Notes: generated from the sequence alone by a model not told the origin. DNA of 24,000 nucleotides from Candidatus Caldarchaeum subterraneum (GCA_000270325.1 BA000048.1:320080-344079); one strand, 5' to 3'. Counted from the stretch's first letter, positions 7,627 through 10,966 are shown. Numbers and translations are program-made.

Positions 7627-7712
7627 CGGCGACCTACCCGATACAAGCCTGTATATGAGCTATTTCTTCAGAAAAAGAAATAAACTTGTTAGAGCGGTTC
7701 TGTGGAGACGGT

Positions 7713-9197
7713 ATGCAAGCTCAGCAGTTCCTGGGTCTTTCGTTTGGAAGGTTGCGTAACTTTGTCAACGGAGTGTGGATGGACTCGCGGACTGAGGTGT
7801 GGAGGCCGGTTTATGACCCCGGTGCTGGACGGATTATCGCCGAGGTTCCCTATGCAACCGATGAAGAGGTAAACTCTGCCGTAGAAGCCGCTGCAGAAGC
7901 TTTCGAGAAATGGAGCCGCACACCTTTCCTCGAACGCGTAAAATACCTCTTCGAAGTTAAGCACGTCCTCGAGAATCATTTGGACGAGTTGGCCGCGATT
8001 AACACTCTTAACCATGGGAAGACACTTGATGAAAGCCGTGGCGACTTGCGGAGGGCGATTGAGAACGTGGACGCCGCTATCGCTGCAGCCTATACCTTGG
8101 CGAAGGGTGAGATGCTGCATGAGATTTCGCCGCGGATTGATGAGTATTCTGTAAAGGAGCCGCTTGGAGTGTTTGCGGTCATAAGCCCGTTCAATTTCCC
8201 GATAATGATTCCGTTCTGGTTTTTCCCCTACGCCATCGCCTTGGGCAACACGGTTGTGATAAAGCCCAGCGACGTAACTCCTGTGCCGATGACTCGTGTG
8301 ATGGAGATTCTGCAGCAAGAGGTTAAGCTGCCGCCCGGTGTTTTAAACCTTGTCCACGGCGGAAAAGAGACAGCGGAGGCGCTTGTCAAGCATCCCCATG
8401 TTAAAGGTGTTTGTTTTGTCGGCTCAACACCTGCGGCGAGGAACATCTACAGGTTGGCGGGTGAGCATGGGAAACGCTGTATAGCTCAGGGTGGTGCGAA
8501 GAACTACATCGTGGTCATGCCTGACGCCGACATGGATGTGACCATACCGGCCACGGTGTCCAGCTTCTTCGGCAACACGGGCCAGAGATGCCTCGCTGGA
8601 AGCAACCTCCTCGTCGTGGACAAAGGGTTCAAGAAGAGTTTTCTGGACAAGTTTTCGCGGCGTAGCAAAGAGCTCGTGATAGGGCATGGTCTCGTGCAGG
8701 GTGTTGAGATGGGGCCTCTTGTGAACAAGGCCGCGCAGACGCGTGTCAAAACCTATGTTGAGAAGGGTGTTGAAGAGGGCGCGAGGCTATTGCTGGACGG
8801 CACAGAGGTGAGTGTTCAGCAGTTTCCTGATGGATTTTACCTGGGAGCAAACATCTTCGACGAAGTGACACCGGACATGACCATCGCGCGGGAGGAGATT
8901 TTCGGGCCAGTGGCGTCCGTGATAACAGCCTCCAGCCTCGATGAAGCCATCGAAACAATTAACACAAGAACCGACTACGGAAACATGGCGTGTATCTTCA
9001 CCTCAAGCGGCTCAAACGCGGCGAAATTCATCAAAAACGTCAACGCCGGAAACATCGGAGTGAACATCGGCGTAGCCGCTCCAGCGGCATACTTCCCCTT
9101 CGCCGGAAGAAAAAACAGCTTCTACGGTGTCCTACATGGACAGATAGATTCCGTCGACTTCTTCACCGACAAAAAAGTCGTGATAACCCGTTGGTGA
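7713..9197 (+). CDS. Aldehyde dehydrogenase, methylmalonate-semialdehyde dehydrogenase (CoA-acylating)-like
   Basis: ALDH motifs are present: FPIMIPFWFFPYAIALGNTVVIKPS, the catalytic Cys in FFGNTGQRCLAGS, and EEIFGPV. The C-terminal GVNIGVAAPAAYFPFAGRKNSFYG...FFTDKKVVITRW is typical of the MMSDH subgroup. The ORF opens at TTG 7686. I prefer ATG 7713 because an AAATAAA box (7678-7684) lies ~30 nt upstream of it. Confidence 0.9.
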   Translation: MQAQQFLGLSFGRLRNFVNGVWMDSRTEVWRPVYDPGAGRIIAEVPYATDEEVNSAVEAAAEAFEKWSRTPFLERVKYLFEVKHVLENHLDELAAINTLNHGKTLDESRGDLRRAIENVDAAIAAAYTLAKGEMLHEISPRIDEYSVKEPLGVFAVISPFNFPIMIPFWFFPYAIALGNTVVIKPSDVTPVPMTRVMEILQQEVKLPPGVLNLVHGGKETAEALVKHPHVKGVCFVGSTPAARNIYRLAGEHGKRCIAQGGAKNYIVVMPDADMDVTIPATVSSFFGNTGQRCLAGSNLLVVDKGFKKSFLDKFSRRSKELVIGHGLVQGVEMGPLVNKAAQTRVKTYVEKGVEEGARLLLDGTEVSVQQFPDGFYLGANIFDEVTPDMTIAREEIFGPVASVITASSLDEAIETINTRTDYGNMACIFTSSGSNAAKFIKNVNAGNIGVNIGVAAPAAYFPFAGRKNSFYGVLHGQIDSVDFFTDKKVVITRW

Positions 9198-9202
9198 ACA
9201 GT

Positions 9203-9280
9203 TGTCCCCCGCCACTAACTCACCGCTTCATAGACGGGCGTTTCACCGTGTCTCGAGCGGAGCTTAAGGTGTGGCGGGGG
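9203..9280 (-). ncRNA. Candidate single-hairpin H/ACA-like guide sRNA (alternatively a 3'-end/terminator hairpin)
   Basis: Reverse strand reads CCCCCGCCAC-ACCUUAAGCU-CCGCU-CGA-GA-CACGGUGAAACGCCCGUCUAU-GA-AGCGG-UGAGUUA-GUGGCGGGGG-ACA. There is a perfect 10-bp lower stem and a 10/7-nt internal loop (pocket-like). A 5-bp upper stem follows, then a 3-nt bulge plus GA opposite GA (K-turn-like), and ACA sits immediately 3' of the lower stem. It lies 12 nt downstream of the pheT stop on the same strand. Confidence 0.4.
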
Positions 9281-9292
9281 CATGAGATAGTT

Positions 9293-10966
9293 TCACTCGG
9301 CGCGATATAGTTGTTGCAGCTTGTATAGTTTCTCTATCTCTATTTCGAAAAGTGTGACGGGCATCTCTATGCCAAAGTTCTCCAACACTGTGGGAGAAAC
9401 CTCACCGACTATCCCTGCTTTTGAGCCGTCGATTGTGAGAGCTGCGCATCTTCCCTCGATAAATGTTCCCATGGTTGCTGGAATGTATTCGGGTTTTAGT
9501 TGGAGAAGTTTGAGGAGTTCGTCGAGGACGCTTTTTGCCTCGCTGTAGCCCGCTTCTGCGTATGCGATGGCTGCGGCCAGTTTCTTCATCCTCACAGTTT
9601 TCTCCGGGGCCGCTGGCTCGATATGTATGATGTCGCCGAGCTCAAAGATTCTCTGAGGGTATAGATTGTCCGTGTTGTTTGCGAGTGTTGCCAAAAGTGA
9701 TGGGATGAGGGATGTTCTGACCATGGTGTATTCGCGTGTGGCTGGGTTCGCGAGCGTAACATGCTCTATTTCGTCTAAACCGGACATTTGATAGTGTGTT
9801 TGCTCATTTGTTAGCATGAGGTTGTGGACTTCTGTGAAGCCGAGTCCCAGCATCGTCTCCGCTACTTTTTCGTAAAATGTTGTCTGGGGCCTTAGAGAGC
9901 CGTAGGTGTTTGACTGCGGGGCGACCGGTGTCATGTTGTTGTAGCCATAAGCGATGGCGATGTCCTCAACCAAGTCGACTGGATGGAGAATGTCTGCACG
10001 ATGCCGTGGATAGAGAACTCGTAGCCTTTTTCCCTTTACACGCGGCTCCATACCCATTCTCCGCAGAAGCCTGGTGGCCTCTCTCAACGAAAGCTGCAAC
10101 CCCGTCAACCTCTTCACCAGCTCCATGTCCAGCATCATCTCAAGAGGCCTGGTATCAGGCGTGTAGAAGCCTTTCCTCCCATACACAACCCTCACACGCT
10201 GCACAACGCCGCCCGCGTCTGCGAAGGCTTCGGCGAGAATGTTCAAGGCCTGGTTCACTTTTTCCCAGTCTGTGCCAGTCACGTCGATGAAGATGTCTCT
10301 TCTGCCCGGTGTCAGCTCTGTTATCGAGGCGTTTACTATGGGTGGCATCGAGAAAACCTGTCCACGGCTGTCGACGATGACAGGCGCTTTGGAGGCGTCT
10401 TTTAGCAGCCAAGCATGTTTCCGGCCTATCTCGCTCTTTGACAACACCTCACGCGGCGTCATGGCCCTGTAATCCTTCAACGGGACGAACCTTACCTCAT
10501 CCATGCCTACAGCTTTGTATGTGAACGGCGGAGATATTGCCGATAGGTCATGTAACCCTATAGCTGTTTTTCTCCTGTTTCGGCCAATTATCCAGTGAAG
10601 GTCCTCCTGCATCGCAATAAACTCGATGAGCTCGGCCTCGGAGAGTTCGACGTTTCTGACTACTGCGCAGACGATGTGTGGCCGGATGTTTTCGACACTT
10701 TTGTCGACGTAAACACTTATCCCCGAGAGCGGGTAGCTTCTTTTCCTGAGACCTGTTTCTATTCCGAGGTAGCTTCGAAGAGCTGCTGCGACGCCGTATA
10801 CGCTTGAGAAATCGGGTCTGTTGGGGTTGTATTCCACACGTAAGATGTCGCCGGTCTCCTCGACACTCATGCCAAGGGCCGCCAAGTTGTCGGATATTTC
10901 CTCGAGGGTAAGGCTTCTTCCCACGAGACGCCGTAGTTTCTCAACGTCTATGTTGACAACCGGCAT
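9293..10966 (-). CDS. pheT: Phenylalanine--tRNA ligase beta subunit (archaeal type)
   Basis: 557-aa ORF with an archaeal PheT N-terminus (MPVVNIDVEKLRRLVGRSLTLEEISDNLAALGMSVEE), a B3/4-like region and a C-terminal class II-like fold. Its start lies 1 nt after the pheS stop (tight coupling). Confidence 0.95.
   Translation of the reverse strand: MPVVNIDVEKLRRLVGRSLTLEEISDNLAALGMSVEETGDILRVEYNPNRPDFSSVYGVAAALRSYLGIETGLRKRSYPLSGISVYVDKSVENIRPHIVCAVVRNVELSEAELIEFIAMQEDLHWIIGRNRRKTAIGLHDLSAISPPFTYKAVGMDEVRFVPLKDYRAMTPREVLSKSEIGRKHAWLLKDASKAPVIVDSRGQVFSMPPIVNASITELTPGRRDIFIDVTGTDWEKVNQALNILAEAFADAGGVVQRVRVVYGRKGFYTPDTRPLEMMLDMELVKRLTGLQLSLREATRLLRRMGMEPRVKGKRLRVLYPRHRADILHPVDLVEDIAIAYGYNNMTPVAPQSNTYGSLRPQTTFYEKVAETMLGLGFTEVHNLMLTNEQTHYQMSGLDEIEHVTLANPATREYTMVRTSLIPSLLATLANNTDNLYPQRIFELGDIIHIEPAAPEKTVRMKKLAAAIAYAEAGYSEAKSVLDELLKLLQLKPEYIPATMGTFIEGRCAALTIDGSKAGIVGEVSPTVLENFGIEMPVTLFEIEIEKLYKLQQLYRAE

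What the first reader, a model, noticed from the sequence alone, without database searches (positions are those of the whole stretch)
9203..9280. H/ACA-like guide sRNA candidate hidden in the convergent ALDH/pheT spacer
Seen in sequence (reverse strand): a perfect 10-bp G/C-rich lower stem, CCCCCGCCAC (9280-9271) with GUGGCGGGGG (9215-9206), is followed immediately by ACA (9205-9203). The stem encloses an asymmetric internal loop (ACCUUAAGCU / UGAGUUA). Next comes a 5-bp upper stem, CCGCU (9260-9256) with AGCGG (9227-9223). After that, a 3-nt bulge CGA plus GA on one strand faces GA directly abutting the stem on the other strand, which is the K-turn consensus arrangement. Established knowledge: archaeal H/ACA sRNAs are ~65-80-nt hairpins with a ~9-10-bp lower stem, a pseudouridylation pocket, an upper stem carrying an L7Ae-binding K-turn or K-loop, and ACA right after the lower stem. 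The plus-strand reading has CAU instead of ACA, so the signal is strand-specific. Caveats: the non-canonical stem distal to the GA pairs is weak, and the 3' pocket strand plus stem (17 nt to ACA) is slightly longer than the usual 14-16 nt.
Basis: partly seen in the sequence, partly recalled or inferred. Interest (0 to 1): 0.6.

Follow-up and report, generated by a model that had tools for sequence, protein, structure and literature searches.

The report
Archaeal H/ACA pseudouridine guide RNA
The hairpin is very probably an unannotated small guide RNA of the hot-subsurface archaeon Caldarchaeum subterraneum that directs pseudouridine formation in helix 69 of the large ribosomal RNA: a new member of a well-known RNA class, not a new kind of system.

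Summary
Window 9280-9203 (minus strand) forms a 10-bp stem, an internal loop, an upper stem and ACA, exactly as described.

It is not a chance hairpin. A covariance model finds one copy per genome in 56 of 76 genomes of the order/class. 14 of 20 base pairs show compensatory changes. A BRE/TATA-like box sits at a fixed distance upstream. The genome encodes Cbf5, Nop10, Gar1 and L7Ae.

The pocket strands match one outstanding site in the organism's rRNAs and tRNAs: the 3' strand of 23S helix 69, GAC-U-C-U-C-UUAAGG. The predicted target is U1921 (E. coli numbering). It lies 14 nt from ACA, and this register holds in nearly all lineages. U1923 is also possible. These are the positions of yeast pseudouridines 2264 and 2266.

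One genus has C1921 in its rRNA. Its guide changed to match and shifted register onto U1923.

No Rfam family matches.

This scan has previously noted H/ACA guides beside pheT in Nitrosopumilus-type archaea. The same synteny holds here.

Verdict: new member of a known kind, moderate interest.

The parts
9203..9283 (-). Predicted H/ACA sRNA gene, about 80 nt. The start is inferred at about 9283-9281. The ACA box is at the 3' end; the mature 3' end may lie a few nt further on.
   Evidence: The covariance model hit covers window 9283-9200 (= G000:C1:329279-329362). There is one copy in the genome. About 37 G-U cells in the family alignment would be A-C mismatches on the other strand.
9305..9315 (-). 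Archaeal promoter-like element. TATAT is at 9309-9305, preceded by AA at 9315-9314 (BRE-like). It lies inside the last codons of pheT.
   Evidence: In 42 homologues the A+T fraction is 0.88-1.00 at -26 to -22 and 0.90-0.93 at -32/-31 relative to the model start. Neighbouring positions are 0.2-0.6. This holds whether or not pheT is upstream.
9271..9280 (-). Lower stem H1, 5' strand (CCCCCGCCAC).
   Evidence: Ten perfect pairs. 7 of 10 pairs show double compensatory changes and 99.3% of cells are paired across 29 distinct sequences.
9263..9270 (-). 5' guide strand of the pocket, ACCUUAAG. It is complementary to 23S C1924-U1931 (CUUAAGGU).
   Evidence: CCUUAAGC is invariant in family f1. The A-to-G changes seen in other lineages keep pairing with U1925/U1926 by wobble.
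9257..9262 (-). Upper helix H2, 5' strand: C9262, U9261 (a U-U mismatch in this genome) and CCGC 9260-9257. U9256 is a variable bulge.
   Evidence: Pair 24-77 is C-G in 28 of 29 sequences. Pair 25-76 covaries (CG, UA, AU, UG). The four CCGC/GCGG pairs all show double changes.
9253..9255 (-). K-turn, non-bulged strand: C9255 (3n), G9254 (2n), A9253 (1n).
   Evidence: A9253 is invariant and G9254 nearly so across family f1. The arrangement YGA ... NAUGAR matches my recollection of the Pyrococcus Pf9 K-loop; this is an inference.
9233..9252 (-). Distal part: canonical stem GAC (9252-9250) / GUC (9235-9233) and the apical stem-loop GGUG-AAA-CGCC (9247-9237).
   Evidence: G-C is invariant and A-U or G-U is kept (helix 3). 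3 of 4 apical pairs show double changes (helix 4).
9227..9232 (-). K-turn, bulged strand: bulge U9232-A9231-U9230, sheared G9229-A9228, then A9227 (3b).
   Evidence: A-U-G-A is invariant in family f1 and the first bulge position is variable. UGA is kept in nearly all of the order.
9216..9222 (-). 3' side of the pocket. U9222 and G9221 close H2, A9220 follows, and the 3' guide is GUUA (9219-9216), complementary to 23S U1917-C1920. G9219 is 14 nt from ACA.
   Evidence: G-U-U/C always sits 14-12 nt before ANA, except in genus g8. U-to-C in several genera turns U-G1918 into C-G1918.
9206..9215 (-). Lower stem H1, 3' strand (GUGGCGGGGG).
9203..9205 (-). ACA box (ANA).
   Evidence: It directly follows H1. 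Relatives have ACA, AUA (for example G010, G014, genus g13) or AAA (all seven g7 genomes).
9171..9176 (-). T6 run, a possible archaeal termination signal 27 nt past ACA. It lies antisense to the end of the ALDH gene.
   Evidence: Sequence only. Downstream T-runs are present in many but not all homologues. This is an inference.

Best explanation
This is an independently transcribed, single-hairpin box H/ACA guide sRNA of Candidatus Caldarchaeum (Caldiarchaeum) subterraneum.

Inferred mechanism:
- L7Ae binds the K-turn in the upper part.
- Cbf5-Nop10-Gar1 bind the lower stem and ACA.
- The two pocket strands pair with the 3' strand of helix 69 of 23S rRNA and the linker that follows it: 5'-UGAC-U1921-C-U1923-CUUAAGGU-3' (E. 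coli numbering).
- Cbf5 isomerises U1921. This is the position that sits 14 nt from ACA below a 6-bp upper helix, with a 5'-UNN-3' unpaired triplet.
- In this genus it may also, or instead, act on U1923. That needs 6+7 bp with a canonical UN dinucleotide, 16 nt from ACA.

Shown here: the structure, its conservation and covariation, the promoter signal, the protein partners and the complementarity. Inferred: expression, protein binding and the modification itself.
For: Structure and conservation.
- The structure is exactly as described and unusually stable.
- The hairpin alone, not its flanks, is conserved at 78-99% identity in relatives, in some of them in different genomic contexts.
- Covariance models find one full-length copy per genome in 43 of 76 (R1) and 56 of 76 (R2) genomes of the order.
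- On 29 distinct sequences, 97.4% of cells are paired and 14 of 20 pairs show double changes. 0 of 500 shuffles reach this, and slid controls give 43-60%.
- About 37 G-U cells fix the strand.

Promoter and partners.
- A BRE/TATA-like box sits at a fixed distance in 42 homologues.
- Cbf5, Nop10, Gar1 and L7Ae genes are all present.

Target.
- I scanned the organism's own 16S, its 23S with the helix-69 intron removed, and 34 tRNAs. The two best sites are U1923 (score 13.5) and U1921 (12.5), both in helix 69. In the strict scan the next best site scores 7.0. In the looser scan the next sites score 11.5 (a G-U-rich site near the 5' end of the 23S) and 8.5.
- Shuffled guides reach the observed score in 6 of 1000 (strict) or 15 of 1000 (loose) trials.
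- Guide changes in relatives stay compatible with the invariant rRNA.
- Genus g8 has rRNA UGACCC in place of UGACUC. Its guide reads GGGUCA in place of GAGUUA, and U1923 sits at 14 nt.
- Family f3 carries the 5' guide AAGAG abutting H2, which leaves only U1921 (with or without C1922) unpaired.
- Genus g5 has C1921 and no detectable copy, even at the pheT 3' end.

Published rules and precedents.
- Archaeal rules: H2 of 5-6 bp, 14-15 nt to ANA, and a UNN triplet is functional (PMC2377435). The extended H2 is supported.
- The site is pseudouridine 2264/2266 in yeast (PMC2794176). Its U1923 equivalent is modified by a Cbf5 guide in Sulfolobus islandicus (PMC11077068).
Against:
- No Rfam family matches, even at E <= 10.
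- The target match on its own is only moderately significant (p about 0.006-0.015).
- For U1921 the 3' guide duplex is short, 4-5 bp, whereas PMC2377435 stresses the importance of the 3' guide. The UNN arrangement is non-canonical.
- For U1923 the ACA distance (16 nt) and the upper helix (4 WC pairs) fall outside the Pyrococcus rules.
- In this genome H2 contains a U-U mismatch and a bulge.
- The K-turn's distal canonical stem has only 2-3 Watson-Crick pairs.
- The constant linkage to pheT leaves open that part of the RNA is made by read-through.
Confidence: 0.85

Rival explanations
1. It is the same H/ACA guide, but in this genus the sole target is U1923 (equivalent to yeast 2266 and Sulfolobus U2066). 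The 3' guide GAGUUA pairs with U1917-C1922 and the 5' guide ACCUUAA pairs with U1925-U1931. This is the canonical UN arrangement with the upper helix frayed by two pairs.
For: - It is the highest complementarity score in the unbiased scan: 13.5, with 7+7 pairs.
- A9220 is complementary to U1921 only in genera g1 and g11, and becomes G where the rRNA has C1921 (g8).
- In S. islandicus a 6-bp 3'-guide duplex suffices for the equivalent site (PMC11077068).
Against: - The distance to ACA is 16 nt and H2 is reduced to 4 WC pairs. Both fall outside the 14-15 nt and 5-6 bp found for active Pyrococcus guides.
- G9221 pairs with the nearly invariant C9262 (28 of 29 sequences).
- In most lineages (g2, g3, f4, f3) the nucleotide at the A9220 position cannot pair with U1921, so this register is not conserved.
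Confidence: 0.3
2. It is a 3'-UTR or terminator hairpin of the pheST operon, conserved only because it ends pheT transcripts. It would be neither a trans-acting guide nor a separate gene.
For: pheT ends directly upstream, on the same strand, in nearly all homologues of families f1 and f4 and in some more distant ones. A T6 run lies downstream.
Against: - Homologues without pheT upstream (G003, G008, genera g11, g8, g6) keep the RNA and the promoter box.
- A terminator does not need near-invariant loop strands, an ANA box, a K-turn signature, or loop changes that track the rRNA.
- By established knowledge, archaeal termination relies on oligo-T tracts rather than hairpins.
Confidence: 0.04
3. 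It is a conserved K-turn RNA with some other role. For example, it could be an L7Ae-binding regulatory element, or an rRNA-folding or intron-splicing chaperone that pairs with the helix-69 exon junction without catalysing pseudouridylation.
For: - The 5' guide pairs across the exon junction of a 1133-nt LAGLIDADG intron.
- It matches the unspliced 3' junction (GCUUAAGGU) over 9 bp.
- No modification data exist.
Against: - Close relatives without this intron (G012) keep the same RNA.
- The full H/ACA anatomy is conserved, including ANA at a fixed distance.
- All four RNP proteins are present.
Confidence: 0.06

Closest known systems
Single-hairpin box H/ACA sRNAs of Pyrococcus/Thermococcus (for example Pab91, Pab160 = Pf9; PMC2377435)
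   Same: One hairpin with a lower stem of at least 7 bp, a pseudouridylation pocket, a 5-6 bp upper helix, an apical K-turn or K-loop, and ANA directly after the lower stem at 14-15 nt from the target. The protein set is also the same: Cbf5, Nop10, Gar1 and L7Ae.
   Different: There is no sequence or Rfam-model similarity. The target is different: none of the listed Pyrococcus guides is assigned to the helix-69 stem. This RNA has a true K-turn with a distal stem-loop rather than a K-loop. The lineage is also different (Caldarchaeales rather than Thermococcales).
Sulfolobus islandicus sR148 (PMC11077068)
   Same: It is a Cbf5-dependent guide for the helix-69 region of 23S rRNA. Its U2066 site is stated there to equal yeast pseudouridine 2266, which is U1923 here. 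A 6-bp duplex 5' of that U is used. The near-repeat UAACUCU / UGACUCU lets one 3' guide address two sites six nucleotides apart.
   Different: sR148 is 'atypical': it has no lower stem, no ACA and only a 3' guide. The RNA here is a classic H/ACA hairpin with both guide strands. No pseudouridine at the U1921 equivalent was reported in S. islandicus.
Yeast snR3 and snR84, human equivalents (PMC2794176)
   Same: They guide pseudouridines 2264 and 2266 in the helix-69 stem. By the paper's own equivalences (2258 = E. coli 1915, 2260 = 1917), these are the same two uridines predicted here.
   Different: They are eukaryotic two-hairpin H/ACA snoRNAs with an H box, no K-turn, and Nhp2 in place of L7Ae. 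No sequence homology was tested.
Haloferax volcanii sR-h45, stem-loop 2 (PMC7075261, PMC5029457)
   Same: It is an archaeal H/ACA guide acting on helix 69.
   Different: It is a double hairpin that targets the loop positions 1940/1942 (E. coli 1915/1917), not the stem.
Two-hairpin H/ACA sRNA between pheT and an EVE-domain gene in Nitrosopumilus-type archaea
   Same: It lies directly downstream of pheT on the same strand. A two-hairpin version downstream of pheT was also seen here in a more distant genome of the phylum (L233).
   Different: The RNA here is a single hairpin whose promoter overlaps the pheT stop region. Homology of the individual hairpins was shown only by a covariance-model score (E about 5e-5), not by matching guides.

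Membership tests
Archaeal box H/ACA guide sRNA | Lower helix H1 of at least 7 bp, flanked directly at its 3' side by ANA | tested here: met
   10 perfect pairs followed by ACA. Kept in all homologues with 7 of 10 pairs covarying. The box is ACA, AUA or AAA.
Archaeal box H/ACA guide sRNA | Internal loop (pseudouridylation pocket) with strands of 5-11 nt | tested here: met
The criterion comes from PMC2377435.
Archaeal box H/ACA guide sRNA | Upper helix H2 of 5-6 bp between the pocket and the K-turn, with at most one bulged nucleotide | tested here: met
   Six positions from C9262-G9221 to C9257-G9226, with one U-U mismatch and one bulge (U9256) in this genome. Most homologues have six Watson-Crick or G-U pairs, with covariation.
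Archaeal box H/ACA guide sRNA | K-turn or K-loop with tandem sheared G-A pairs in the apical part, bound by L7Ae | tested here: inconclusive
   The sequence signature is present: YGA on the 5' strand and N-A-U-G-A-R on the 3' strand, with the G9229-A9253 pair invariant. The fold and L7Ae binding cannot be tested with these tools.
Archaeal box H/ACA guide sRNA | Bipartite complementarity of the pocket strands to a stable RNA around an unpaired U | tested here: met
   23S helix-69 stem: U1923 scores 13.5 and U1921 scores 12.5. The next best site scores 7.0 in the strict scan and 11.5 in the loose scan. 6-15 of 1000 shuffled guides do as well. Compatible guide changes are seen across lineages.
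Archaeal box H/ACA guide sRNA | Target U 14-15 nt upstream of ANA | tested here: met
   14 nt for U1921 in nearly all lineages and 14 nt for U1923 in genus g8. In this genome U1923 is at 16 nt, so the rule is not met for that alternative.
Archaeal box H/ACA guide sRNA | The genome encodes Cbf5, Nop10, Gar1 and L7Ae | tested here: met
   All four score above the curated cut-offs.
Archaeal box H/ACA guide sRNA | Accumulates as a discrete small RNA, and pseudouridine is present at the predicted site and depends on the guide | not testable with these tools
No modification data are available for this uncultivated organism.
Any curated Rfam H/ACA family (for example HgcE/F/G) | Score at or above the family's gathering threshold | tested here: not met
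   There was no hit in the whole window at gathering scores. Around the hairpin at E <= 10 the only hit was an irrelevant miRNA fragment.

The most novel reading that the evidence does not exclude
The guide family 'slides' along the repetitive CUCUCUU tract of the helix-69 stem as the rRNA evolves. Most lineages would address U1921. In a genus whose rRNA lost U1921, the guide changed one base and shifted register by two nucleotides onto U1923, and in another such genus it was lost. In intron-bearing strains such as this one, the two guide strands pair on either side of a homing-endonuclease intron site. The canonical substrate therefore exists only after 23S splicing, which would order pseudouridylation after intron removal.
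Probability: 0.3. Interest if true: 0.55.

Novelty: new member of a known kind. Interest (0 to 1): 0.4.

Why it matters
- It adds an unannotated, Rfam-absent H/ACA guide family to Caldarchaeales (the 'Aigarchaeota'). My searches found no report of pseudouridylation guides for this lineage.
- It predicts that these archaea carry the eukaryote-type pseudouridines of the helix-69 stem (yeast 2264/2266). One of these has so far been mapped in archaea only in Sulfolobus, where a structurally atypical guide makes it.
- It gives a clean natural example of a guide changing together with its rRNA target.
- It marks a conserved pheT-sRNA gene pair that is useful for annotating related genomes.
- It does not change what is known about how H/ACA RNPs work.

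Tried and rejected
- **Rfam.** I searched the whole window at gathering thresholds and the local region at E <= 10. Nothing relevant was found.
- **Pattern scan of all reference genomes.** It was useful only for the organism names of five true homologues: Ca. Caldarchaeum spp., Archaeon HR01 and Ca. Pelearchaeum.
- **Repeat or MITE idea.** Rejected. There is one copy in the genome and one per relative.
- **Terminator idea.** Rejected for the reasons given under the rival explanations.
- **Target in the helix-69 loop.** The 3' guide GAGUUA is a perfect complement of UAACUC, which lies 5' of U1917, and GUUA is complementary to UAAC, which lies 5' of U1915. I considered this and did not adopt it as primary. 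The 5' guide then has no adjacent partner, and lineages with GUC in the guide pair only with G1918-C1920.
- **Search for more H/ACA genes.** A home-made descriptor scan recovered this RNA and about a dozen unconvincing hits, mostly of coding-like composition. BLAST with a second H/ACA-like RNA seen in genus g5 found no counterpart here.
- **Weak model hit near pheT in g5.** It is a palindromic stretch without ANA or a K-turn, and is not a homologue.
- **Literature.** Full-text searches for Caldiarchaeum together with H/ACA returned nothing. The search syntax cannot express 'H/ACA', so this is weak evidence of absence.

Full report
**1. What is in the sequence**

Read on the minus strand, window 9292-9198 is the 95-nt spacer between two convergent genes. 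One is an aldehyde dehydrogenase (7686-9197, + strand; Pfam Aldedh, E = 6e-138). The other is the phenylalanyl-tRNA synthetase beta chain (9293-10966, - strand; B5 and tRNA_synthFbeta domains), with pheS just upstream of it.

- a perfect 10-bp stem, 9280-9271 with 9215-9206;
- ACA at 9205-9203;
- loop strands ACCUUAAGCU and UGAGUUA;
- CCGCU facing AGCGG.

The minus strand folds at -41.2 kcal/mol (z = -4.07; 0 of 200 shuffles as stable). The plus strand folds less well (z = -2.86). Rfam has no matching family, either at gathering thresholds for the whole window or at E <= 10 for the local region.

**2. Organism**

The window lies in a single-contig genome of 1,680,938 bp with 51.6% G+C. Homologues of the RNA retrieved from public genomes carry the titles Candidatus Caldarchaeum sp., Archaeon HR01 and Ca. 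Pelearchaeum maunauluense. The size agrees with my memory of the published Ca. Caldiarchaeum subterraneum genome. The organism is uncultivated.

**3. It is a conserved, single-copy, structured RNA gene**

A BLAST-type search of 40 relatives found that the hairpin alone is conserved at 78-99% identity in three genera. The match corresponds to query positions 62-138, which is window 9279-9203. In several genomes the flanks are unrelated.

The alignment shows obvious compensatory changes. For example, GCC/GGC becomes AUC/GAU or ACC/GGU in the lower stem, and CCGC/GCGG becomes CCAC/GUGG in the upper stem.

A covariance model built from 12 sequences found exactly one full-length match per genome in 43 of 76 genomes of the order. 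A second model built from 30 sequences found 56 of 76. The order and the class hold the same 76 genomes.

On the 30-sequence alignment (29 distinct sequences):
- 97.4% of cells are standard pairs;
- 14 of 20 pairs show changes on both sides;
- none of 500 column shuffles reaches the observed values;
- sliding the 3' partners by 1-3 columns drops pairing to 43-60%.

The alignment was fitted to the model's structure, which favours it, but the margin is large. About 37 cells are G-U pairs that would be A-C mismatches on the other strand, which fixes the transcribed strand.

**4. It has its own promoter, and it is tied to pheT**

In 42 homologues the A+T fraction is 0.88-1.00 at positions -26 to -22 and 0.90-0.93 at -32/-31 relative to the model start. 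Neighbouring positions are 0.2-0.6. That is the spacing of an archaeal TATA box and BRE for a start 1-3 nt before the lower stem. In the window the box is TATAT at 9309-9305 with AA at 9315-9314, inside the last pheT codons.

The box is present whether or not pheT lies upstream. Even so, pheT ends directly upstream on the same strand in nearly all homologues of two families (f1 and f4), in genus g9, and in a more distant genome of the phylum (L233). In L233 the RNA has two hairpins, each followed by ACA. Earlier notes of this scan describe a two-hairpin H/ACA RNA between pheT and an EVE-domain gene in Nitrosopumilus-type archaea. The pheT linkage therefore appears to be old.

**5. Anatomy compared with the published archaeal rules**

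Muller et al. (PMC2377435) define the motif as follows:
- H1 of at least 7 bp;
- loop strands of 5-11 nt;
- H2 of 5-6 bp with at most one bulge;
- an apical K-turn or K-loop;
- ANA next to H1;
- 14-15 nt from ANA to the target U.

They also found that a 5'-UNN-3' unpaired triplet is functional.

Here H1 is 10 bp. The comparative data change the picture of the upper part. Position 9256 varies (U, A, C or absent) while its supposed partner A9227 is constant, so it is a bulge and not a pair. In contrast, C9262-G9221 is C-G in 28 of 29 sequences. The next pair (9261/9222, U-U in this genome) is CG, UA, AU or UG in most others. H2 is therefore six positions long, and the 3' pocket strand starts at A9220.

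The K-turn signature is YGA on the 5' strand (C9255-G9254-A9253) and N-A-U-G-A-R on the 3' strand (U9232 to A9227). A9253, U9230 and G9229 are invariant in family f1. GAC/GUC (9252-9250 with 9235-9233) and a covarying apical stem lie distal to it.

This places the 3-nt bulge on the 3' strand and merges the non-canonical stem with H2. My recollection of the Pyrococcus Pf9 K-loop (5' ..UGA.. / ..AAUGAG.. 3') has the same arrangement. The orientation is an inference from conservation; L7Ae binding was not testable.

**6. Protein partners**

Cbf5 (TIGR00425, 309.7 bits), Nop10, Gar1 and L7Ae are all encoded, each above the curated cut-off.

**7. Target**

The 23S gene (C1:1311688-1317180, minus strand) is 5493 nt long against a model of 2987 positions. 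It contains a 1133-nt intron encoding a protein with two LAGLIDADG-type motifs. The intron is inserted exactly between ...GGGAGUAACUCUGACUCUC and UUAAGGUAGCC. Intron-less relatives give the mature sequence GGGAGUAACUCUGACUCUCUUAAGGUAGCC, which is identical in most genera of the order.

I scanned the organism's own 16S, the 23S with this intron removed, and 34 tRNAs for bipartite complementarity. The two best sites are adjacent uridines in the helix-69 stem:
- U1923 (E. coli numbering): score 13.5, 7+7 pairs, canonical UN;
- U1921: score 12.5, 5+8 pairs, UNN.

In the strict scan the next best site scores 7.0. In the looser scan the next sites score 11.5 (a G-U-rich site near the 5' end of the 23S) and 8.5. 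Shuffled guides reach 13.5 in 6 of 1000 trials with strict settings and 15 of 1000 with loose settings. On its own this is suggestive rather than overwhelming. The comparative data add weight:

- (a) CCUUAAGC is invariant in family f1. Where it changes elsewhere (A to G at either A), pairing with U1925/U1926 is kept by wobble.
- (b) The trinucleotide G-U-U/C always lies 14-12 nt before ANA and pairs with C1920-A1919-G1918. U-to-C in several genera turns U-G1918 into C-G1918. This excludes the look-alike UAAC in the loop for those lineages.
- (c) In family f3 and in some hits outside the class (for example G115), the 5' guide is AAGAG abutting H2. It pairs with C1922-U1926 and leaves only U1921 (with or without C1922) free.
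- (d) In genus g8 the rRNA reads UGACCC (C1921) and the guide reads GGGUCA. It is fully complementary and shifted so that U1923 is the residue 14 nt from ACA, below a 6-bp H2. This is a canonical H/ACA geometry.
- (e) Genus g5 also has C1921. No copy was found in any of 8 genomes, nor downstream of pheT in five of them.

By the Pyrococcus rules the favoured target in this genome is U1921: 14 nt to ACA, H2 of six positions, and U1921-C1922-U1923 unpaired. U1923 needs H2 to fray by two pairs and lies 16 nt from ACA. However, it has the better complementarity, and A9220 matches U1921 only in genera g1 and g11. I cannot decide between them by sequence. Both may be modified, since single archaeal motifs are known to serve several sites.

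**8. Relation to known modifications**

In yeast, pseudouridines 2258 and 2260 equal E. coli 1915 and 1917, and the helix-69 stem carries pseudouridines 2264 (guide snR3) and 2266 (guide snR84). Both are conserved in humans (PMC2794176). By arithmetic these are E. coli positions 1921 and 1923.

In Sulfolobus islandicus, U2060 (= 1917) and U2066 (= yeast 2266) are modified by Cbf5 with the atypical guide sR148. This was shown by deleting the gene. sR148 has only a 3' guide and forms a 6-bp duplex at U2066 (PMC11077068). The RNA here is thus a classic-architecture guide for a region already known to be guide-modified in a related archaeal lineage. A pseudouridine at the 1921 equivalent was not among the sites reported there.

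**9. Intron and timing (inference)**

The 3' guide pairs within exon 1. The 5' guide pairs almost entirely within exon 2. In this strain the canonical substrate therefore exists only after splicing.

The unspliced 3' junction (GC|UUAAGGU) also complements the 5' guide over 9 bp. The closest relative without this intron (G012) has the same guide, however, so the guide is not an intron-specific device.

**10. Rivals**

- A pheT terminator or UTR hairpin is contradicted by the homologues that lack pheT, by the promoter box, and by conservation of the loop, box and K-turn.
- A mobile repeat is excluded by single-copy status.
- A non-catalytic K-turn RNA cannot be excluded without modification data, but nothing argues for it.

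**11. What could not be done**

Protein binding and pseudouridine formation also could not be tested. Literature searches could not express 'H/ACA' as a term, so the absence of prior reports for this lineage is only weakly supported.

**12. Verdict**

- It is a new member of a known kind, namely a Caldarchaeales-wide, pheT-linked, Rfam-absent H/ACA family.
- Its predicted target is the helix-69 stem.
- Interest is moderate. It rests mainly on the guide-target co-variation and on the eukaryote-like target positions.

Noticed in passing
outside the window: G000:C1:1313299-1314431 (minus strand), inside the 23S gene C1:1311688-1317180: The 23S rRNA gene is 5493 nt against a 2987-position model. 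One insertion is a 1133-nt intron encoding a protein with two LAGLIDADG-type motifs, placed exactly at the 3' end of helix 69 (..GACUCUC | UUAAGG..). Relatives either lack it (G012, genus g7), share it (G009, G014, G041), or carry a different intron four nucleotides further on (..CUCUUAA | ; G013, G064, G037).
   Followed up: partly
outside the window: 16S at G000:C1:1662154-1663645, 23S at C1:1311688-1317180: The 16S and 23S rRNA genes are about 345 kb apart, so they are not in one operon.
   Followed up: no
outside the window: G000:C1:451004-451968 (L218): The cbf5 reading frame is interrupted. Model positions 6-71 and 70-322 match in two different frames 8 nt apart, within the conserved GHGGTL / VSGVLP region. 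This fits a very short intron of the kind reported for cbf5 in some Crenarchaeota (from memory) or a frameshift. I did not resolve which.
   Followed up: partly
L183-L189 (genus g7), about 1501-1584 in each locus: All seven genomes of one genus have AAA in place of ACA after the lower stem. Others have AUA (G010, G014, genus g13). The middle base of the box is free in this family.
   Followed up: partly
L233:1400-1586 (genome G121, another family of the phylum): A two-hairpin H/ACA-like RNA lies directly downstream of pheT. Each hairpin is followed by ACA. The second hairpin matches the model built here (E about 5e-5). It resembles the pheT-EVE two-hairpin RNAs noted earlier in this scan.
   Followed up: partly
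L205:1501-1590 and L207:1501-1590 (genus g5): This is a second, unrelated H/ACA-like hairpin with different pocket strands (AUAGGCGGCG / ACAUCC), a CAAGG..GCGAUGAG K-turn signature, and AUA or ACA. No counterpart was found in the window's genome by BLAST.
   Followed up: partly
window 8990-9310 (+ strand): A 106-codon open frame runs across the end of the ALDH gene, the whole sRNA and the pheT stop. It is almost certainly spurious, being antisense to a structured RNA, but it could mislead gene callers.
   Followed up: no
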